This document shows positions 1,103 to 62,201 of a stretch of DNA of 64,000 nucleotides, one piece after another. Origin of the DNA: Holophagales bacterium. GTDB taxonomy: Bacteria > Acidobacteriota > Thermoanaerobaculia > Multivoradales > Multivoraceae. Location: NCBI GenBank assembly GCA_009837885.1, contig VXSP01000045.1:325526-389525 (forward strand). The letters run 5' to 3'. The stretch's first letter is position 1. Every line of letters starts with the position of its first letter. A program made the translations under genes and the position numbers. Under the pieces are notes generated by a model. That model made no database searches, was not told the DNA's origin, and saw only the letters and a list, made by a program, of their open reading frames with translations.

Positions 1103-4100
1103 ATGGATACGAGAGTCTTGTGCGCGGCGCGGCGTTTCGCCGCGGGCTGCGTGTTGTCCATGGGTGGCGTTGGGGCTGGTTACGGACAGATCGTGATCAA
1201 CGAGATCATGCAGAACCCCAGTGCTGTCAACGACAACCAGGGCGAGTGGTTCGAGCTCTACAACGCGGGGAGTGAGACGGTCGACCTGAACACCTGGACG
1301 ATCAAGGACGATGGCAGCAACACGTTCACCATCTCCAGCAGCACGGAAATCACTGCGGGCGGTTACCTCGTCTTCGGAATCAACGCGACGACATCGTCCA
1401 ACGGGGGCGTCACGGTCGACTACGACTATCCGAACGGCTTCTCTCTGAGCAACGGCGACGACGAACTCGTGCTTCTGGATGGCACAAGCACGGAGCAGGA
1501 CCGCGTCAACTGGGACGGCGGACCGAACTTTCCCGACCCGAACGGAGCCTCGATGGCGCTCAAGGCGACCGACCTCGACAACAACGTCGGTTCCAACTGG
1601 TGCGAGGCGACGACCAGCTACGGCGACGGCGACAAGGGCACGCCCGGCGCCGCGAACGACTGTCCGACGGCGCCGGTGGACTTCACGGGCGCCATCTATG
1701 ACATTCAGGGGAGCGGTGCCGAAAGCCCCCACGTTGGCGCCAAAGTCACGACGAACGACAACGTAGTGACCGCGGTAGGCGCGGGCGGCTTCTTCATCCA
1801 GACCCCAACCGCGGCCAGCGACAGCGACGCCGACACCTCGGACGGGATCTTCGTTCTCTACGACGGAACGACGACGATCAACGCAGGCGACCAGGTCGAC
1901 GTGGTGGGCGAAGCCGAGGAGTTCTTCGGTTTCACCCGGATCAACGCCACGATGTCCATTACCGATGCGTCGGTCACCGTCGACGCCAGCAACCAGACGT
2001 TGCCCGATCCGGTGGCTTTCGGCGCGACGGTGCCTTCGGGTGACCCAGCGAGTCCCAGTTGCGCGATCGAGTACGAGTGCTATGAGGGCATGCGGATCCG
2101 GATCGCGTCGGGCACGGTGAGCAGCGGCAGCCAGTTCTTTCGTAGCGACCCGGTTGCCGAGATGTACATCACTCCCACTTCGTCGCGCGCGTTTCGGGAG
2201 AAGGGTCTCGAGTATCCGGGCGACACGACGAACACGAACATCCCCGTTTGGGACACGAATCCCGAGCTCTTCGAACTCGACCCGAACAAGCTGCGTGACG
2301 AGAACGAGTCCTGGGTGCCCGGGACGGCGTTTTCGGCAACGGGTGTCCTCGGTTACGAGTTCGGTGGCTATGAACTCTGGCCGACCGAGTTGACGCGCCT
2401 CACCGCAGCCACCGCTCTGCCACGACCGGTCCGGCAGCGAAGGGCGGGCGAGGTGTCGGTCGCGTCACTGAACCTGCTGAACCTGAACGCTTCGGCCGGG
2501 GACTACGACACGAAGCTGGTCAAGCTGTCCCGCTACATACGTGAGGTCTTGCGATCTCCGGACGTCATCGGCATCCAGGAGGTCTTCACGATCGAAGCAC
2601 TGACCGCGCTGGGCAACAAGATTCGAACCGATGGCGGTCCTACGTACACGGCGTACGTCGAAGTGGGCAACCAGCCGACCGGGGCGAACGTCGGCTTCCT
2701 TGTGCGCTCGGGAGTCACGGTCGACGCGGTTACCCAGCACAACAAGAGCGAGACGTTCGTCAACCCGACAACGACCAACAACGACATCCTGCACGACCGG
2801 CCGCCGCTGCAGCTCGATGCGTCCGTCACCGGCATCGAGTTCTCGGTGATCGTCATTCACAACCGCTCGTTCATCGATGTCGACACCGATCGGGTGCAGG
2901 TTAAGCGCCTGGAACAGGCCGAGTCCGTAGCAGCCCTGGCTCAGGCGCGCCAGGACTCGAAGCTGATCATCGTCGGCGACTTCAACGCGTATCAGTTCAC
3001 CGACGGCTACTCCGACATCGTCGGCGTGATTTCGGGCGACTTCACGGCCAGTGAGAGTAAACGTCCCGGAATGGACCTGGTGAATCCGAACCTCAAGAAC
3101 CTGGTCGCGGATCTGGAAGCAGCGGAACAGTACTCCTACGTGTTCCGGGGCAACGCCCAGGCGCTTGATCATGCTCTGGTCAATGCAGAGATGCAGCCGA
3201 GCGTGGTCGAGATGGTCTACGCGCGGGGCAACGCGGATGCGGCGGAAGGCGAGGAGGAAAACGCGGGCTCAGCTCTCTACGCCTCCGACCACGACGGTTT
3301 CGTGGTGTTCCTGTCGGCGCCGGGTCGTGCGGCTCCGCAAGCGCCGGGCGATCCGGGTGGCGGCACACCGCAGACAGCGGATCTGGACCTCGGCGCCGAA
3401 AGCCAGATCGTCTCGAACAGCATGGTTCGCTACGACGTCAGTGTCGAAAACGAGGGTCCCGGCATCGCTCGTGACGTCGTTGTCATGAGTTCCTTCTCGG
3501 GCGGCGTCGCCCCAGTGGAGGCGAGGACCTCCGGCTGCGAGGAGGATCCGGGTGGCGTACCGGAGTGCAGTCTCGGCGACATCCGGGTCGGAGAGTCCGC
3601 CTCGTTCAGGATCAACGTAGACACCGGCGGCGCCAGTGAGGCGTCGCTCCGGTACAGCGGCTCCATCGTCAGCGACACGTCGGATCCGACGCCGGAGGAT
3701 GACGATATCGACATCTCCCAGCCGCTCGGTCCGCCGAACATTCCCAGCGATCTCGTGGCGACGGCGATCAGTTCGACCGAGATCGAACTCCGCTGGAAGG
3801 ACAACTCGAGCGTCGAGACCGGCTTCGAGGTCTTCCTTCAGGGTCCAGGCGACTCGAGGCTGCGGCTGATCGGGTCGGTGCCCCGGAACACGACCTCCAT
3901 GATCGTCGCCGATCTGGTGCCCGACATCAGGTACAACTTTGCTGTCGAAGCACACAATGGCCCGCTGCGCTCGGGACAGACGCCGAAGGCAACCGCGACG
4001 ACATGGTTCTCGGACGCAGCCGGCTGTGCTGATGATTCCGTGCTCTGCGTCGGGAGCTTTGAGGTCGAGGTCGAGTGGACAGCGGCCGACGGCAGGACGG

Positions 4101-10428: not shown

Positions 10429-10917
10429 TCAGGCGGCTTCGGGCAGTCCGGCGAGGACCAGTTCGGATGGCTTGGGGTTGTTGGCGGGTCCGGTCTCGAC
10501 GAACAACGTGACGCTATGGCGAAGGGCGGGATTCGGTCGCACCGGGAGTTCGGACTGGACCTGGCCGGCTGCGACCTTCTCTCGCGCCGCGTCGAACGCG
10601 TGAGCGGCCCATGCGTCCGTGTCCTTGAAGAACCTGGAGACCTTCCGCTCGAACACGTCGAAGTCGGGCGCGTCCGCCGCGATGTCGTACAGCGCGAGTT
10701 CCGTGTTCGCCTTCAGGTCGAGGTAGGCCTCGATCAGGGTGTCGCCCACGCCGGCGACGCCGCCCGGCTTCAGGCCGTGCGCGAGGAAGCCGTCCTCCTC
10801 TTCGGTGACCACGGCGCCCCCACGAAACTCGACTCCGGCGGCGAAGCCCGGGCCTTGTACGGGGATCTGCAATCGGAACACGATCGGGTAGACCGTGTCC
10901 GGCATGGGATCGATCAT
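10429..10917 (-). CDS. HicB-like (UPF0150) antitoxin-family protein, 162 aa
   Basis: YPIVF...EEEDGFLAHGLKPGGVAGVGDTLIEAYLDLKANTELAL matches the HicB N-domain pattern (YPxVxE.EEDG...PG..GDTLEEA). Confidence 0.45.
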   Translation of the reverse strand: MIDPMPDTVYPIVFRLQIPVQGPGFAAGVEFRGGAVVTEEEDGFLAHGLKPGGVAGVGDTLIEAYLDLKANTELALYDIAADAPDFDVFERKVSRFFKDTDAWAAHAFDAAREKVAAGQVQSELPVRPNPALRHSVTLFVETGPANNPKPSELVLAGLPEAA

Positions 10918-11081
10918 GTCGGTCTCCCTCTTCGACGTGGGAGGCGGGAAGGTTTGGATCAGCGGCTTGACCGGCCGGCAGCCGGGTGCTGGAAGGCGAT
11001 GAGTATACCGAGGAGTCCGAGCGGGATCACCGCTCCCGGCGCCAGGGTCGGCATGGCGCCTCCCACGTTGGCGGCTTTCGA

Positions 11082-19763: not shown

Positions 19764-20378
19764 TCATTGGCCGCTGGCGTCGGGGCGAGGGGGATTGATC
19801 ATGATGTGCGCACCCGCGGTGCCGGGGAACATCAGCCAGGGCGCGCCGGGCACCGGCCGGGTCGTCAGTCCGGTCGACTCGGGCGTTGCGTACGGCGTGT
19901 AGATCACCCAGCGCAGGTAGGCGTCACTCACTTCACCGGTCGCGGCGTCGAAGCCGCTACCGTGGAGCACGTACAAGGTGCGCGGCTCCCGCGGCATCGG
20001 CAGCTTGCCTTCCGCGATCTCCCGTTCACGAATCTCGATTCGTTCCTGGCCCTCGATGCCCTGGGCCGTCAGTTCGCGGCCGCGGGCCATGAACGGCTCC
20101 AGCGACTCGTGGTAACAGGCGACGCTCCACTGCGCGTCGCCAGGCCGGGCCGCCAGGCAGACGAGGTCGTTGCTGCCGGTCCGGAGTTCCACCACCTTGC
20201 CATCGGCGGTCCAGCCAAGCACGCGCGCGCCGTCCCGCCGGTCTTCCGGCGCCGCCTGGATTGCGGCGGCGAGCTGAGCTTCGGCATCGCCCGGTTCCGC
20301 CGCCGGTGAGGCTGCAGCCAGACAACCCAGCGCGAGCGCGGCGATCACTGCTTTCGATGTCCTCGTCCTGACGTGCAC
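19764..20378 (-). CDS. Hypothetical lipoprotein
   Basis: Lipobox LALGC follows an N-terminal basic region. No recognisable domain. Confidence 0.5.
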   Translation of the reverse strand: MHVRTRTSKAVIAALALGCLAAASPAAEPGDAEAQLAAAIQAAPEDRRDGARVLGWTADGKVVELRTGSNDLVCLAARPGDAQWSVACYHESLEPFMARGRELTAQGIEGQERIEIREREIAEGKLPMPREPRTLYVLHGSGFDAATGEVSDAYLRWVIYTPYATPESTGLTTRPVPGAPWLMFPGTAGAHIMINPPRPDASGQ

Positions 20379-20491: not shown

Positions 20492-21226
20492 ATGATCGAT
20501 CTGCACTACTGGCCGACGCCGAACGGCAAGAAAGTCACGATCCTGCTCGAGGAGTGCGGGTTGCCCTACCGCATCGTGCCCTGCCGGATCGGCTTCGGTG
20601 ACCAGTTCAAGGAAGAGTTCCTGGCCATCTCGCCGAACAACCGGATGCCGGCGATGGTCGATCACGAGCCGGCCGACGGCGGTGAACCGATCGCGCTCTT
20701 CGAGTCCGGCGCGATCATGATGTACATCGCCGAGAAGGCCGGCCGGTTCTACCCTCAGGATCTCCGTGCCCGCCACGAGGTGAACCAGTGGCTCATCTGG
20801 CAGATGGCGAACCAGGGGCCGAAGTCCGGCGAGTGCGGTCATTTCCGTCGCCTGCGCGACACGGAAGGCGACCAGAGCTACGCGGTGCGCCGCTTCACCG
20901 ACGAAGTGAACCGCCTCTACGGCGTGATGAACAACCGCCTCTACGACCGGCGTTACCTGATCGGCGACGAGTACACGATCGCCGACATGATCTGCTATCC
21001 GTGGACGGTTCGCTGGGAGGACCAGCAGCAGGACATCGAGGAGTTTCCGTACTTCAAGCGCTGGTTCGAGGAAGTCGGTGCCCGTCCGGCGGTCCAGCGG
21101 GGCATGGACGTCTCGAGCGGCGAGGCGATCGACTACGCGAACCTCTCCGACGAAGAACGCGAACGCCTGAAGAAGCTGCTCTACAACCAGCGCGCCCGGC
21201 CGGCGCCCGAGGGCGGGCTGCTGTAG
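20492..21226 (+). CDS. Glutathione S-transferase (Nu/YfcG-like)
   Basis: MIDLHYWPTPNGKKVTILLEE...LAISPNNRMPAMVDH...ESGAIMMYIAEK matches the GST N-domain. Confidence 0.85.
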   Translation: MIDLHYWPTPNGKKVTILLEECGLPYRIVPCRIGFGDQFKEEFLAISPNNRMPAMVDHEPADGGEPIALFESGAIMMYIAEKAGRFYPQDLRARHEVNQWLIWQMANQGPKSGECGHFRRLRDTEGDQSYAVRRFTDEVNRLYGVMNNRLYDRRYLIGDEYTIADMICYPWTVRWEDQQQDIEEFPYFKRWFEEVGARPAVQRGMDVSSGEAIDYANLSDEERERLKKLLYNQRARPAPEGGLL

Positions 21227-21250
21227 CGGGGCGCCGTCGGACGCACCCGC

Positions 21251-21424
21251 CCGCGTCGCGGCCCGAGGGGTCAGCTCCCAGGTGACGCTCGCGCTTGAGA
21301 GGAGATGGAAGGGGTTGCGCTCGCTCCGCTTCACTCGCTCCGGTTGGGCGTCGGTTGGTGGAGTGTCGTCGGGCGTCGCTCGTTCAGAGGCACCTGGGAG
21401 CTGACCCCTCGGGCCGCGACGCGG
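21251..21424. repeat. MITE-like element: 34-bp perfect terminal inverted repeats flanking a 106-bp core
   Basis: 21251..21284 (CCGCGTCGCGGCCCGAGGGGTCAGCTCCCAGGTG) is the exact reverse complement of 21391..21424. It lies in the convergent intergenic region GST / sulfotransferase. Confidence 0.55.
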
Positions 21425-21456
21425 GCTGGACATCGGTGGACCGCACTGCGCTTCAG

Positions 21457-21484
21457 ACTGGGTGCGCCGGCGTCCTCGCCGGCC
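21457..21484 (+). repeat. REP-like conserved hairpin copy A (ACTGGGTGCGCCGGCGTCCTCGCCGGC)
   Basis: Stem GCCGGCG/CGCCGGC with 4-nt loop. Near-identical to copies at 43719 and 57235. Confidence 0.5.
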
Positions 21485-21505
21485 TCTTGAGGATCGTGCG
21501 AGGCG

Positions 21506-22366
21506 CTAGCCTCGCTCCTTTGCGAATGCGACTGTGCCGCGCAGCTCTTCGTAGGAACTGTGACCCGTCGCCGGTTTCACGATCCGCTGCCACTCTCGAT
21601 CCCAGACCTCGAGGACTTCGCGCGGTACTTCACGGGAGCCTTCTCCCGACTTTCCCTTGCGGACCTTTGTTGTGGTGCCGGAGGCGGGGAGGCCGCAGGG
21701 GGCGTTTCGGGCGTTGCGGACCAGGTGGTCGTCGAACTTCGAGCTGTGTTCGCGCATGAAGCCGATTGACGCTTGCCGGGTCGCGATCTCGATGTTGGGG
21801 TGCTCCGGGTCGAGCTTGAGGAACGCCGCGACGCGGGCGGTGGCGGCGGGGAGGTCGGCGACGATGTCCTCGAAGCAGAGCCAGAGGGTCTCCGGGTCCA
21901 GGCGCTCCGGCCACCAGGACACGAGGTGTTCCCAGTAGCGGCCGCTACGGGTGCCGTGGAAGATGAAGTCGAGGGCGAAGTCGCGGATCGAGACGGTCCC
22001 GGGCTCGAACACCCAGCCGCTGAAGAAGTGGAAGAAGGAGACGAGCGAATCGACCGGGTCGCGGACGACGAAGATGTTGCGCCCACCTTTCGGTGCCAGT
22101 TCCCGGCTCAGGTGGGTCTTGAACGCTCTGGGCTCGGCCCGCTGGTGTGCGTCGAGGTCGAGGCCGATGTCGTGGGCGACTTCGAGCCAGGGGACGACTT
22201 CCGTGATCTCGTCGAAGTCCATGTCGCCGCCGGTGCGGAGCCCGTGGACGATCTGCTGCATCAGGGTCGTGCCGGCCTTGGGATAGGTGGCGATCAGGAT
22301 GTCGCTGGGCCGCAGACTGAAGTCGAGACCGCGCCGTACTCCTTCTCGTGTGGCGAAGCCGGCCAT
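21506..22366 (-). CDS. Sulfotransferase family protein
   Basis: PAPS-binding motifs YPKAGTTL and RDPVDSLVS are present. ATG at 22366. An alternative GTG at 22426 overlaps the exoIII stop (GTGA). Confidence 0.75.
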   Translation of the reverse strand: MAGFATREGVRRGLDFSLRPSDILIATYPKAGTTLMQQIVHGLRTGGDMDFDEITEVVPWLEVAHDIGLDLDAHQRAEPRAFKTHLSRELAPKGGRNIFVVRDPVDSLVSFFHFFSGWVFEPGTVSIRDFALDFIFHGTRSGRYWEHLVSWWPERLDPETLWLCFEDIVADLPAATARVAAFLKLDPEHPNIEIATRQASIGFMREHSSKFDDHLVRNARNAPCGLPASGTTTKVRKGKSGEGSREVPREVLEVWDREWQRIVKPATGHSSYEELRGTVAFAKERG

Positions 22367-22422
22367 GCGCCGCCTGATGCCCTCGACCGTAGTGGCCCGG
22401 TGAGGCGTCACGGCGCTGTCGC

Positions 22423-23232
22423 TCACCCGAGTACCTCGGCCGAAAGGTCGACGCCGACCGGGCAGTGGTCCGAGCCGGTCACGTGCGTCAGGATGAACGC
22501 CCGCTCGACGAAACGCATCGCGGCCTCCGAGGCGAGCACGAGGTCGATCCGCCAGCCGACGTTGCGCTCGCGGGCCTGGAAGGCCTGCTTCCACCAGCTA
22601 TAGCGCACCGTGTCGGGGTGCAGGGTCCGGAAGGTGTCGATCCAGCCGGCGTCGAGCCAGCGCTGGACCTCGTCGCGTTCCTCCGGCAGGAAGCCGGAGT
22701 TCCTCGCGTTGTCCTTCGGGCGCGCCAGGTCGATCGGCTGCGGCGCCGTGTTGAAGTCGCCGATGACCAGGACGCGATAGCCGGCGGCGCGGGCCTGGTC
22801 GAGCTGGGCGAACAGGGCGCGGTAGAAGCCCAGCTTGTAGGGCACGCGGCTGTTGTCTCGCTTGCTGCCGCTGCCCTTCGGGAAGTAGACGTTCGCCACC
22901 AGCAGTTGGCCGAAGAGAGCCAGTTGCAGACGGCCCTCGGCGTCGAAGCGCGGTTCGCCGAGCGAGGTGCGGACCCAGGCCGGCTCCAGGCGGGAGTAGA
23001 GGCCGACGCCGGAGTAGCCTGGGCGCTCGGCGCTCGAGAAGGAGGTGTGCCAGCGCGTGGGCCGGCGAAGCTCCGGCGCCAGTTGCCCGGCGCGGGCCTT
23101 CGTTTCCTGCAGGCCGACGATCTGAGCCCGGCTCTTTCCCAGCCAGTCGAGGAAGCCCTTGCGCCCGGCGGCGCGCAAGCCGTTCACGTTCCAGGAGACG
23201 ACGCGGATGCGACGGCGCTTCCGGGGGCTCAG
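22423..23232 (-). CDS. xth: Exodeoxyribonuclease III
   Basis: The full ExoIII core runs from RIRVVSWNVNGLRA to DHCPV. The track start (GTG 23187, VNGLRA) truncates the conserved N-terminus. There is no canonical start upstream; CTG at 23232 overlaps the GNAT TGA stop. Confidence 0.75.
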   Translation of the reverse strand: MSPRKRRRIRVVSWNVNGLRAAGRKGFLDWLGKSRAQIVGLQETKARAGQLAPELRRPTRWHTSFSSAERPGYSGVGLYSRLEPAWVRTSLGEPRFDAEGRLQLALFGQLLVANVYFPKGSGSKRDNSRVPYKLGFYRALFAQLDQARAAGYRVLVIGDFNTAPQPIDLARPKDNARNSGFLPEERDEVQRWLDAGWIDTFRTLHPDTVRYSWWKQAFQARERNVGWRIDLVLASEAAMRFVERAFILTHVTGSDHCPVGVDLSAEVLG

Positions 23233-57234: not shown

Positions 57235-57262
57235 ACTGGGTGCGCCGGCGTCCCCGCCGGCT
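57235..57262 (+). repeat. REP-like conserved hairpin copy C (ACTGGGTGCGCCGGCGTCCCCGCCGGC), 28 nt after the coxB stop; flanked by 18-nt direct repeats
   Basis: Same element as copies A and B. Flanking GGCCGCGAGGCCGGTTCC (57214..57231) and GGCCGCAAGGCCGGTTCC (57290..57307). Shared downstream GCTCTGGGTGTmCGCT with copy B. Confidence 0.5.
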
Positions 57263-57335
57263 GCCGCCGGAGGCGGTGAGGAAACGTACCGGCCGCAAGG
57301 CCGGTTCCCTATGCTCTGGGTGTACGCTCTGAAGA

Positions 57336-61970: not shown

Positions 61971-62201
61971 GGGGCCGGCAGTGTACCGCCGGAAGCTTCG
62001 GCTGCACCCGCCCGTTCCGGGCCTCAGGGGAGAGGGTCCCAGCGGGCTGGGCGGCGTAGACGTGCGTGCAGGCCCAACAGTGCATCGTCCTGGAGCCTTT
62101 GGCGGCGCAGTCTTGGCGGGTTCTGGTCCTTGTCGACCGTCTAGCCACCGGGAACTCATGCACCGACCTTGTGTTCTAACAGAATACTGTAAATTTAGTG
62201 A

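What the first reader, a model, noticed from the sequence alone, without database searches (positions are those of the whole stretch)
21251..21424. MITE-like element: 34-bp perfect inverted repeats flanking a 106-bp core in a convergent intergenic region
21251..21284 and 21391..21424 are exact reverse complements (34/34). Such long perfect terminal inverted repeats enclosing a short non-coding core are the hallmark of miniature inverted-repeat transposable elements. They could alternatively form a very stable transcribed hairpin of about 170 nt.

The element sits between the GST stop and a REP-like hairpin. That pattern is consistent with insertion into a terminator region.
Basis: seen in the sequence. 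Interest (0 to 1): 0.5.

Follow-up and report, generated by a model that had tools for sequence, protein, structure and literature searches.

The report
Multi-copy hairpin repeat behind gene ends
The inverted repeat is real and is one copy of a previously undescribed ~205-base hairpin-forming repeat. It is scattered through the genomes of sponge-associated Acidobacteriota, almost always just behind the stop codon of a gene. It is a new family of an already familiar kind of small bacterial repeat element, not a new kind of system.

Summary
**Observation:** confirmed and slightly understated. The perfect arms are 36 nt (21249-21284 / 21391-21426) around a 106-nt core. No shuffle gave a match.

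**What it is:** one copy of a ~205-nt non-coding repeat (window ~21235-21438).
- I found 91 copies at about 25 different loci in MAGs and complete chromosomes of sponge-associated Acidobacteriota (Thermoanaerobaculia / Ca. Multivorans) and in metagenome contigs.
- None turned up in viral, plasmid or phage collections or in Rfam.
- Several copies occur per genome. There is a diverged subfamily, truncated copies and one nested insertion.
- The GST/sulfotransferase junction is empty (6-nt gap) in two relatives.

The MITE-like reading is therefore partly supported. No target-site duplication and no parent IS was found.

**Unexpected features:**
- Copies are co-oriented with the upstream gene and start 0-85 nt after its stop.
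- The long stem and a short internal helix keep pairing through compensatory changes.
- Some sequence blocks barely change between orthologous copies (0.6-4%), while a variable region of the same element differs by 25%.

**Best reading:** a non-autonomous repeat that persists as a co-transcribed 3'-end hairpin with constrained motifs. How it spreads and what it does are inferred, not shown.

The parts
20492..21226 (+). Upstream gene (GST-like, 244 aa). The element is co-oriented with it and begins 8 nt after its stop codon.
   Evidence: ORF and Pfam GST_N/GST_C gene call. Codon-position GC 0.66/0.40/0.90.
21235..21438 (+). The whole repeat unit as delimited by a profile built from 51 copies (profile positions 4-207 of 211).
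   Evidence: nhmmer hit with E = 2.7e-55. Alignments of paralogous copies within one genome lose similarity outside CACCCGCC... on the left and ...GGTGCCGAG on the right.
21235..21243 (+). Left extension CGTCGGACG. It is semi-conserved, absent from the empty site, and in other copies expanded into 2-5 tandem 22-nt units.
21244..21253 (+). Left terminus CACCCGCCCG. This is the sharp left boundary of similarity among paralogous copies.
   Evidence: Divergence between orthologous copies is 4%.
21249..21284 (+). Left arm of the perfect 36-nt inverted repeat (helix P1). The outer half, 21249-21264, is the part that varies with compensation in other copies. The inner half, GAGGGGTCAGCTCCCAGGTG, is nearly invariant.
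21287..21294 (+). 5' side of the internal helix P2 (GCTCGCGC here, GTGAGCGC in the consensus).
   Evidence: Alignment columns 61-68 pair with columns 92-99. Three of the 8 pairs show changes on both sides. In this copy the two central pairs are mismatched.
21295..21316 (+). Purine-rich loop of P2 (TTGAGAGGAGATGGAAGGGGTT). It holds a Shine-Dalgarno-like motif and an ATG whose reading frame is not conserved between copies.
   Evidence: Divergence between orthologous copies is 16%.
21317..21343 (+). Block C, the pyrimidine-rich conserved block GCGCTCGCTCCGCTTCACTCGCTCCGG. Its first 8 nt form the 3' side of P2.
   Evidence: Many columns are invariant in 55 copies. Divergence between orthologous copies is 4%.
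21344..21374 (+). Variable region of the core.
   Evidence: Divergence between orthologous copies is 25%. No consistent fold was found.
21375..21391 (+). Block D, GTCGCTCGTTCAGAGGC, the most conserved stretch of the element.
   Evidence: 15 of its 17 columns are invariant in 55/55 copies and the other two are at least 90% conserved. Divergence between orthologous copies is 0.6%. It was used as the seed that found 26 metagenome loci.
21391..21426 (+). Right arm of the perfect 36-nt inverted repeat (helix P1).
21423..21438 (+). Right terminus GGGCTGGA plus the right extension CATCGGTG (consensus CGTCGGTGCCGAG).
21458..21483 (+). Companion small repeat: CTGGGTGCG followed by a 7-bp hairpin (GCCGGCG TCCT CGCCGGC). 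It belongs to a second, REP-like family that often follows the big element.
   Evidence: 93 occurrences against about 20 expected in 763 kb of loci. 39 of 105 profile hits reaching the element's right end have it within 150 nt downstream on the same strand.
21506..22426 (-). Convergent downstream gene (sulfotransferase, 306 aa). Its last ~10 codons differ between genomes with an occupied site and genomes with an empty site.

Best explanation
The finding is one resident copy of a family of short (~205 nt), non-coding, non-autonomous repeat elements. The family is confined, as far as these searches see, to sponge-associated Acidobacteriota.

Each copy has imperfect ~60-nt terminal inverted repeats. 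Their inner 35-45 bp form a long stem (P1) that presents a ~106-nt asymmetric core.

The family reached at least ~25 unrelated intergenic sites by an unidentified mobilisation mechanism, or by recombination between copies. After that it was mostly inherited vertically.

Copies survive almost only in one orientation, directly behind the stop codon of a co-oriented gene. From this I infer that they are transcribed as the 3' end of that gene's mRNA. There the stem would act as a 3' hairpin: a barrier to 3' exonucleases, a processing site, or a U-tract-less termination signal. The invariant core blocks (C, D and the inner arms) would be bound by some factor.

**Shown:**
- repetition and distribution
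- directionality
- presence/absence at one site
- compensated stems
- uneven constraint along the element

**Inferred:** mobility as such, transcription, and the RNA-level role.
For: **Multi-copy and dispersed.**
- 65 genome stretches carry the arm 20-mer, nearly all as full copies 83-89% identical to the window copy.
- With the 26 metagenome loci this gives 91 copies in 25 locus groups.
- At least 4-8 copies occur per genome.

**Marks of a repeat family with turnover.**
- A ~70%-identical subfamily coexists in the same genomes.
- Truncated copies and tandem partial copies exist.
- A 67-nt hairpin repeat is inserted into two copies.
- Copies in one genome at different loci are as alike (89.3%) as orthologous copies in different genomes (88.7%). 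Both exceed unrelated pairs (85.2%).

**Presence/absence.**
- GST and the sulfotransferase gene are 6 nt apart in L097 and L102.
- They are 279 nt apart in the window.
- They are 199 nt apart in L103, where the gap holds a subfamily-2 copy co-oriented with GST.

**Non-coding.** Copies differ by 1-nt indels between the ATG and the invariant block.

**Directional context.**
- 50 of 58 copies with an upstream gene within 150 nt are co-oriented with it.
- By locus group, about 20 of 23 are co-oriented.
- In tandem contexts, the only informative ones, the count is 7:0, or up to 13:0 if groups with no called downstream gene are added.

**Structure.**
- P1 is 97-98% paired over 33 pairs, with compensatory changes at 5 pairs. 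Pair 34/188 is AU in 37 copies and CG in 15.
- P2 has 3 compensated pairs out of 8.
- All five measures exceed all 500 shuffles and all slid controls.

**Constraint in place.** Orthologous copies differ by 0.6% in block D and 3-4% in block C and the inner arms. They differ by 25% in the variable region. Third codon positions of the flanking genes differ by 10-22%.
Against: - No target-site duplication appears at any tested offset.
- No transposase or other multi-copy protein lies next to any copy.
- Every orthologous site among the pattern-fetched loci is occupied. Those loci were selected for carrying the element, so this is weak evidence.
- The one empty/occupied comparison is between species with only ~75-78% sulfotransferase identity, and the gene's C-terminus differs in each. 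Insertion cannot be told from deletion.
- No promoter-like or canonical terminator-like site lies in the element, and no T-run follows the stem.
- The core alone folds no better than shuffled sequence on either strand (z about +0.7).
- G-U versus A-C mismatch counts in P1 (16 vs 19, leaving out one fixed wobble) do not point to a functional strand.
- Compensated arms could come from templated arm-to-arm correction of DNA palindromes rather than from selection on an RNA.
- The orientation bias could partly reflect replication direction rather than transcription. I could not test this.
Confidence: 0.6

Rival explanations
1. A functional structured RNA or protein-binding cis-element, for example a 3'-UTR regulatory or processing module. 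It would have been copied to many genes and is now kept by selection. Its transposon-like look would be secondary and it would no longer be mobile, if it ever was.
For: - Constraint is very uneven between orthologous copies: block D 0.6%, block C 4%, inner arms 3-4%, against 25% in the variable region and 10-22% at synonymous sites.
- P1 and P2 show compensatory changes.
- Copies are co-oriented with the upstream gene and lie close to its stop.
- All orthologous sites among the fetched loci are occupied.
- There is no TSD and no transposase.
Against: - The upstream genes have no common theme: RuvA, RecA, RecR, GST, epimerase, DegT, enoyl-CoA hydratase, M24 and M23 peptidases, an NtrC-like activator and others.
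- There is no Rfam match.
- The core is not thermodynamically structured.
- Truncated and tandem-partial copies and a nested insertion look like decay rather than function.
- The GST site is empty in two genomes that carry or belong with the family.
Confidence: 0.25
2. A REPIN-like element: a hairpin made of two inverted recognition sequences. A single-copy HUH (Y1) transposase of the RAYT / IS200-IS605 kind, encoded elsewhere in each genome, would mobilise it as single-stranded DNA.
For: - It forms a long hairpin.
- Copies sit at gene 3' ends and between convergent genes.
- Copies persist vertically at orthologous sites while copies within a genome stay alike.
- There is no TSD, as expected for this mechanism.
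- It is strongly directional.
- A second, REP-like small hairpin family lies alongside it.
- The compensated stem fits recognition of a folded single strand.
Against: - No RAYT or TnpA gene was seen in about 760 kb of flanking DNA. Only DNA around copies was sampled, so this is weak.
- The unit (~205 nt with a 106-nt conserved asymmetric core) is larger and more complex than described REPINs. That comparison rests on my own knowledge.
- The arms lack an obvious internal REP palindrome or a conserved 5' tetranucleotide.
Confidence: 0.12
3. An invertible DNA switch (inverton): the 36-nt inverted repeats would be recombination sites and the 106-nt core would flip.
For: - Inverted repeats around a ~100-nt segment have the geometry of known invertons.
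- Pairs of whole elements in inverted orientation do flank a segment (ruvB) that is found in both orientations in different assemblies.
Against: - In all 55 aligned full-length copies the core has the same orientation relative to the distinguishable outer flanks, CACCCGCCCG on the left and CGGGCTGGA on the right.
- No promoter-like site lies in the core.
- No recombinase gene is adjacent.
Confidence: 0.02
4. An assembly artefact (fold-back chimera), or a one-off bidirectional terminator hairpin specific to this locus.
For: - Contigs of several assemblies break inside the arms, and one scaffold has an N gap and poly-G/C junk there.
- The element lies between convergent genes.
Against: - The breaks fall exactly where a real 36-nt inverted repeat must break a k=31 graph.
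- The sequence past the right arm continues into the sulfotransferase gene, not back into GST.
- 91 homologous copies exist, including on complete MAG chromosome records.
- No T-run follows the stem.
Confidence: 0.01

Closest known systems
Bacterial MITEs with long terminal inverted repeats that are co-transcribed with neighbouring genes. Examples are the Correia/NEMIS elements of Neisseria and ERIC/IRU elements of enterobacteria. These comparisons rest on my own knowledge, not on a tool result.
   Same: - 100-250 nt, non-coding and multi-copy
- long inverted termini that fold into one big hairpin
- intergenic and mostly in transcribed 3' or intra-operon positions (here also between ruvA and ruvB)
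- subfamilies and internally deleted variants
   Different: - No TA or other target-site duplication was found.
- No parent IS is known.
- There is no sequence similarity to anything in Rfam, plasmid or phage collections.
- Copies have a strong single orientation relative to the upstream gene.
- Core blocks are nearly frozen between orthologous copies.
REPINs / REP-BIME elements with their RAYT transposases.
   Same: - hairpin-forming
- found at gene 3' ends and between convergent genes
- long vertical persistence at orthologous sites together with within-genome similarity
- no TSD
- mosaic arrangement with other small palindromic repeats: CTGGGTGCG + hairpin here, and tandem 22-nt units at the left end
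   Different: - The unit is about twice as long and has a large, asymmetric core conserved at the sequence level.
- No RAYT gene was seen in the sampled DNA.
- Copy number appears modest: at least 4-8 copies per genome carry an exact arm 20-mer.
Stabilising 3' hairpins and REP-type mRNA stabilisers, and U-tract-less 'I-shaped' terminators reported for high-G+C bacteria. This rests on my own knowledge.
   Same: - position directly behind a stop codon and co-oriented with the gene
- a very stable G+C-rich stem with no T-run
   Different: - These features are normally locus-specific sequences of 20-40 nt.
- They are not a 205-nt repeated unit with conserved loop motifs.
- Function here is untested.

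Membership tests
MITE (miniature inverted-repeat transposable element) | Small (under about 500 bp) and without coding capacity | tested here: met
   The unit is ~205 nt. The only ATG-led ORF changes frame between copies because of 1-nt indels (126- versus 127-nt arm spacing). Conservation is at the nucleotide level.
MITE (miniature inverted-repeat transposable element) | Terminal inverted repeats | tested here: met
   36 nt are perfect in this copy. Across 55 copies, 33 pairs are 97-98% paired. Weaker inverted similarity continues to the ends (GGCGTCGGACGCACCC versus the reverse complement of GGACGTCGGTGCC).
MITE (miniature inverted-repeat transposable element) | Many dispersed copies within a genome | tested here: met
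   At least 4-8 copies per genome carry an exact arm 20-mer. Examples are OZ244152, OZ245033 and JAGWAG01, at unrelated loci. The window's own 64 kb holds a single copy.
MITE (miniature inverted-repeat transposable element) | Target-site duplication flanking each copy | tested here: not met
   No left/right 6-mer register averaged even 3.8 of 6 matches within a copy. None is visible in within-genome alignments. The fuzzy element ends limit the power of this test.
MITE (miniature inverted-repeat transposable element) | Insertion polymorphism (occupied versus empty orthologous sites) | tested here: inconclusive
   The GST/sulfotransferase junction is empty (6 nt) in L097 and L102 and occupied in the window, L009, L034, L037 and L103. 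The species are distant and the neighbouring gene end differs, so gain cannot be told from loss. No empty sites appear among the pattern-fetched loci.
MITE (miniature inverted-repeat transposable element) | Termini shared with an autonomous IS that supplies the transposase | not testable with these tools
   No multi-copy protein lies beside copies in ~760 kb. Truncated copies are not IS ends. Whole genomes and ISfinder were not available.
REPIN / REP with RAYT | Hairpin made of two inverted REP units, at extragenic 3' positions, inherited vertically | tested here: inconclusive
   The hairpin, 3' position and vertical persistence are met. The arms have no clear internal REP palindrome, and the 106-nt conserved core is atypical.
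REPIN / REP with RAYT | A cognate RAYT (Y1 HUH transposase) gene flanked by the repeats | not testable with these tools
   None was seen in the sampled flanks. Whole genomes could not be searched.
Inverton (invertible promoter switch) | The segment between the inverted repeats occurs in both orientations | tested here: not met
   The core orientation is constant in 55 of 55 copies. No promoter-like site was found.
Integron attC site | R''/R' core sites (RYYYAAC ... GTTRRRY) at the ends of an imperfect palindrome, arranged in ORF-attC arrays | tested here: not met
   The ends read CACCCGCCCG ... CGGGCTGGA and carry no AAC/GTT core sites (read off). The flanking genes are ordinary syntenic housekeeping genes.
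Any Rfam RNA family | A covariance-model match at or above the gathering score | tested here: not met
   The only match is a plant miRNA precursor model at 33 bits against a cut-off of 150, which reflects the long hairpin.
Intrinsic (Rho-independent) terminator | A G+C-rich hairpin followed by a T-run | tested here: not met
   The scan finds no terminator-like site in 21227-21505. The stem is followed by GGACATCGGTGG.

The most novel reading that the evidence does not exclude
The element may be more than a passive MITE. It could be a domesticated, sequence-specific module that sponge-symbiont Acidobacteriota keep behind particular genes, including recA, ruvA/ruvB and recR.

In this reading, a long compensated stem presents invariant single-stranded motifs (blocks C and D) to a dedicated RNA- or DNA-binding factor. 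That would make it a clade-specific system for defining or processing 3' ends, or for chromosome-level recombination.

Pairs of copies in inverted orientation may also flip the gene between them, as seen for ruvB.
Probability: 0.15. Interest if true: 0.65.

Novelty: new member of a known kind. Interest (0 to 1): 0.35.

Why it matters
**Practical value.** It gives sponge-symbiont Acidobacteriota, a group known only from MAGs, a defined repeat family.
- The family breaks short-read assemblies. Contigs end inside its arms, and one public MAG has a gap and junk sequence there.
- It coincides with two synteny differences between relatives.
- It may invert genes lying between copies.
- A profile of it can flag mis-assemblies and serve as a lineage marker.

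**Biological value.** It is a clean case for an old question: are small palindromic repeats parasites or retained functional parts? Orthologous copies show blocks that are almost frozen next to a freely drifting region, plus a strict orientation behind stop codons. That makes a specific, testable prediction of a binding partner and of an effect on the 3' end of the upstream mRNA.

**If it is only a decaying MITE family,** it is ordinary.

Tried and rejected
- **Protein coding in the core.** Rejected. The ORF from the ATG at 21305 has a different frame in other copies.
- **Known RNA family.** None in Rfam at E < 1 apart from a spurious miRNA hairpin model.
- **Plasmid, phage or viral origin.** No blastn match in plasmids or phages, and no exact match to the conserved 20-mer in viral contigs.
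- **Autonomous parent.**
  - The 1.5-kb pair in L017 turned out to be two separate full copies around ruvB, not an IS.
  - Truncated copies are remnants in intergenic DNA.
  - All-against-all comparison of about 700 predicted neighbouring proteins gave only syntenic orthologue sets.
- **Target-site duplication.** Not found by eye in within-genome alignments or by a register scan.
- **Empty sites by joining flanks.** All orthologous sites among fetched loci were occupied. The smallest gap, 145 nt, is an internally deleted copy.
- **A second filled/empty comparison, downstream of the epimerase gene** (window 25019 versus L009/L037). It failed because synteny changes at that point.
- **Strand of function from wobble pairs.** No asymmetry.
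- **Stable fold of the core alone.** Not better than shuffles, and the predicted folds disagree between copies.
- **Sigma-54 promoter in block D / right arm.** By eye, the GG...GC spacing is one base off the consensus. This was not pursued.
- **Common function of the upstream genes.** None, apart from three recombination genes.
- **Literature.** No paper in the searchable library describes repeats in these bacteria.

Full report
**1. Observation**

- The inverted repeat exists. The repeat finder gives arms 21246-21289 and 21386-21429, 44 nt at 93% complementarity.
- By direct extension the perfect part is 36 nt, 21249-21284 against 21391-21426, around a 106-nt core.
- The arm occurs nowhere else in the 64-kb window, and none of 100 shuffles gave a match.
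- No other close inverted repeat in the window comes near it.
- The region folds far better than shuffles on both strands.
- It lies between a GST-like gene (20492-21226, +) and a sulfotransferase gene (21506-22426, -).

**2. It is not an artefact**

- The window is identical here to an independent assembly of the same sample series (L002).
- Two k=31 Logan contigs end at 21278. A 36-nt perfect inverted repeat starting at 21249 creates a branch in a k=31 graph at exactly that position.
- A third assembly ends inside the right arm.
- The NCBI MAG (GCA_009842435.1) has an N gap and poly-G/C junk there.
- The element therefore breaks assemblies, but the reads contain it.

**3. It is one copy of a family**

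- An exact-match scan of one genome per species with the inner arm 20-mer returned 65 stretches. Apart from one unrelated 23-nt match in an Acidimicrobiales MAG, all are MAGs named Thermoanaerobaculia, Ca. Multivorans, Holophagales or Acidobacteria. Many are complete chromosome records.
- The two arm hits are typically 126-127 nt apart, as in the window.
- BLAST and a profile search show full copies of ~205 nt, 83-89% identical to window 21235-21438.
- Also present:
  - a ~70%-identical subfamily in the same genomes;
  - truncated and tandem-partial copies;
  - an internally deleted copy (L046);
  - two copies carrying a 67-nt insertion that is itself a small hairpin repeat.
- A scan of JGI metagenomes with the most conserved 20-mer added 26 loci. 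A scan of viral contigs found none.
- There is no match in plasmid or phage collections, or in Rfam.
- In all I count 91 copies in 25 locus groups.

**4. Anatomy** (alignment A1, 55 copies)

- The consensus reads GGCGTCGGACG-CACCCGCCCG-(outer stem)-GGAGGGGTCAGCTCCCAGGTG-core-CACCTGGGAGCTGACCCCTCC-(outer stem)-CGGGCTGGA-CGTCGGTGCCGAG.
- The unit is directional.
- In order, the core holds:
  - an 8-bp helix P2 closing a purine-rich loop;
  - a pyrimidine-rich block C;
  - a variable stretch of about 30 nt;
  - block D, GTCGCTCGTTCAGAGGC.
- The ATG in the loop is not in a conserved frame, so the element is non-coding.
- In all 55 copies the core has the same orientation relative to the distinguishable ends. 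It is therefore not an invertible switch.

**5. Structure**

- On a structure I specified (P1, P2 and a speculative P3), 96.7% of cells pair.
- Ten pairs have changes on both sides, against 4.9 expected from shuffles. All slid controls collapse to 33-53% paired.
- The compensation is concentrated in the outer stem and in P2. Pair 34/188 is AU in 37 copies and CG in 15. Pair 62/98 is UA in 42 and CG in 11.
- The window copy shows this well. Its outer stem reads GCGTCGCGGCCCG instead of the consensus GTCTTGGGTCAG, on both arms. That is why it is perfectly paired over 36 nt.
- The core alone is no more stable than shuffled sequence, and its predicted folds disagree between copies.
- Wobble statistics do not identify a strand.
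- I read this as a long stem that presents sequence motifs, not as a compact RNA fold.

**6. Genomic context**

- Using a codon-position GC gene caller checked against the database gene calls, 50 of 58 copies with an upstream gene within 150 nt are co-oriented with it.
- The downstream gene shows no bias, 14 versus 15.
- After manual correction of one group and grouping by locus, about 20 of 23 groups have a co-oriented upstream gene that stops 0-85 nt before the left end.
- Only tandem contexts are informative about orientation, and they stand at 7:0. Adding groups with no called downstream gene gives up to 13:0.
- The upstream genes are unrelated in function. They include RuvA, RecA, RecR, the GST, an epimerase, a DegT aminotransferase, an enoyl-CoA hydratase, peptidases and an NtrC-like activator.

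**7. Evolution in place**

- Copies occupy orthologous positions in different species.
- For the GST locus, the flanking genes differ by 10-22% at third codon positions. The whole element differs by 14-20% in all but the closest pair.
- Between orthologous copies, however, divergence is very uneven:

| Region | Divergence |
|---|---|
| Block D | 0.6% |
| Block C | 4% |
| Inner arms | 3-4% |
| Left terminus | 4% |
| Outer stem (compensated) | 15-19% |
| Variable region | 25% |
| Flanks | 22-37% |

- The inner arms were favoured by my search seed. Blocks C and D were not.
- This pattern means purifying selection on particular motifs of resident copies. Less simply, it could reflect patchy gene conversion.
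- Copies in one genome at different loci are more alike (89.3%) than copies at different loci in different genomes (85.2%). So there is also turnover or conversion within genomes.

**8. Presence and absence**

- Sulfotransferase orthologues led to the same neighbourhood in more distant relatives.
- In L097 (OZ244152.1, a genome that carries the family elsewhere) and in L102, the two stop codons are 6 nt apart (TAG CGCCTC TCA) with no hairpin of any kind.
- In L103 the 199-nt gap is a subfamily-2 copy, again co-oriented with GST, and the sulfotransferase stop codon lies in its right terminus.
- L098 and L100 lack the GST gene altogether.
- The sulfotransferase C-terminus differs in each state.
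- The site is therefore polymorphic, but gain and loss cannot be separated at this distance.
- No target-site duplication could be read.
- 'Insertion into a terminator' is not supported.

**9. What mobilises it**

- This is unknown.
- No transposase-like multi-copy protein lies near any copy.
- The 1.5-kb pair I first suspected is two copies around ruvB.
- No TSD, a folded stem under compensation and strict directionality fit a single-strand (HUH/RAYT-like) mechanism at least as well as a DDE transposase. I could not search whole genomes.

**10. Verdict**

- The MITE-like interpretation is right in kind: a short, non-coding, multi-copy element with terminal inverted repeats and a polymorphic site. 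Its defining mechanistic features, a TSD and a parent IS, remain unproven.
- The element is better described as a new family of structured intergenic repeats of the ERIC / Correia / REPIN kind.
- It is retained in one orientation behind gene ends, with constrained motifs.
- The RNA-level role (3' hairpin or processing site) is my best inference and is untested.
- Interest is moderate. It is new as a family and useful for MAG assembly and comparative work on sponge symbionts. It is not a new kind of system on present evidence.

Noticed in passing
L011 3461-5004; L015 2565-4302; L017 4341-5948; L062 447-1934; L063 910-2291: Two full copies in inverted orientation bracket ruvB (ruvA -> [E+] ruvB [E-] thrA-like ->). 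The ~1.07-kb segment between them is in operon orientation in L011, L015 and L017 but flipped in L062 and L063 (for example L011 88-1115 against L062 1065-38, 93.7% identity). The inversion state does not follow sequence similarity. This is either recurrent inversion by recombination between the copies or a short-read assembly ambiguity. Both flipped cases are SPAdes MAGs from the same sample.
   Followed up: partly
window 21458-21483 and 57236-57265; many loci (e.g. L011 3707, L042 941, L053 3150): A second, REP-like repeat family: CTGGGTGCG followed by a 6-7-bp G+C stem with a TTCT/TCCT loop. The stem sequence covaries between copies (CCGGCG, CGGACC, CCGGCC, CGGGTC). It occurs 93 times against about 20 expected in 763 kb. 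It lies within 150 nt downstream of 39 of 105 profile hits that reach the big element's right end.
   Followed up: partly
L013 4275-4340; L069 2508-2573; also downstream of copies in L022, L035, L043: A third small hairpin repeat (CCATCCGTGCGCCCGnTGACGGGCGCACGGACTGG) is inserted into two copies of the element just after the left arm. It also occurs free-standing near other copies.
   Followed up: no
upstream of L031 4842-5052 (-), L056 3203-3413 (+), L016 6920-7131 (+): The left end of the element is preceded by 2-5 tandem units of about 22 nt (GGCGTyGsrCkGCACCCGCCT) that repeat the element's own left terminus. A solitary unit or mini-version also lies downstream of the sulfotransferase gene in L100 (about 3400-3445).
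   Followed up: no
window 62005-62050: A 46-nt hairpin (CACCCGCCCGTTCCGGGCCTCAGGGGAGAGGGTCCCAGCGGGCTGG, -34 kcal/mol with flanks) carries the same termini as the big element. It lies in a probable divergent intergenic region. It may be an internally deleted relative of the diverged subfamily, but the loose termini pattern is common by chance (about 9 per shuffled window), so support is weak.
   Followed up: partly
L009 1060-1252, L012 7105-7302, L037 6797-6990, L047 7691-7891, L068 867-1062, L038 2673-2872, L103 3425-3628: A diverged subfamily (~70% identity, arms GGAGGGGAGGGnCCCAGCG...) coexists with the main family in the same genomes. In L103 it occupies the very GST/sulfotransferase site that the main family occupies in the window.
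   Followed up: partly
window 25019 vs L009 1060-1252 and L037 6797-6990: In two close relatives, a subfamily-2 copy directly follows the epimerase gene that ends at window 25018. Gene order changes there: a cytochrome-c-like gene follows, instead of the convergent gene that follows it in the window. A synteny break therefore coincides with an element. A similar change of neighbour is seen between L056 and L031.
   Followed up: partly
L001 (GCA_009842435.1, VYFK01000276.1) about 10915-11020: The public MAG of this organism has a 10-N scaffold gap followed by about 90 nt of poly-G/C junk inside the right arm of the element. In that record no sulfotransferase gene is called.
   Followed up: yes
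L006 5616-6695, L011 2825-3442, L043 2156-2743 / L056 5246-5830: Three of about 22 locus groups have a recombination gene (recA, ruvA, recR) as the gene immediately upstream of the element, and ruvB is bracketed by two copies. This is possibly chance, and it was noticed only after the fact.
   Followed up: no
L098 4001-5638; L100 2501-4266: In two relatives the GST gene is absent. The sulfotransferase gene is followed directly by the 204-aa gene that lies on the other side of GST in the window (19764-20378). The GST gene is thus itself variably present at this spot.
   Followed up: no
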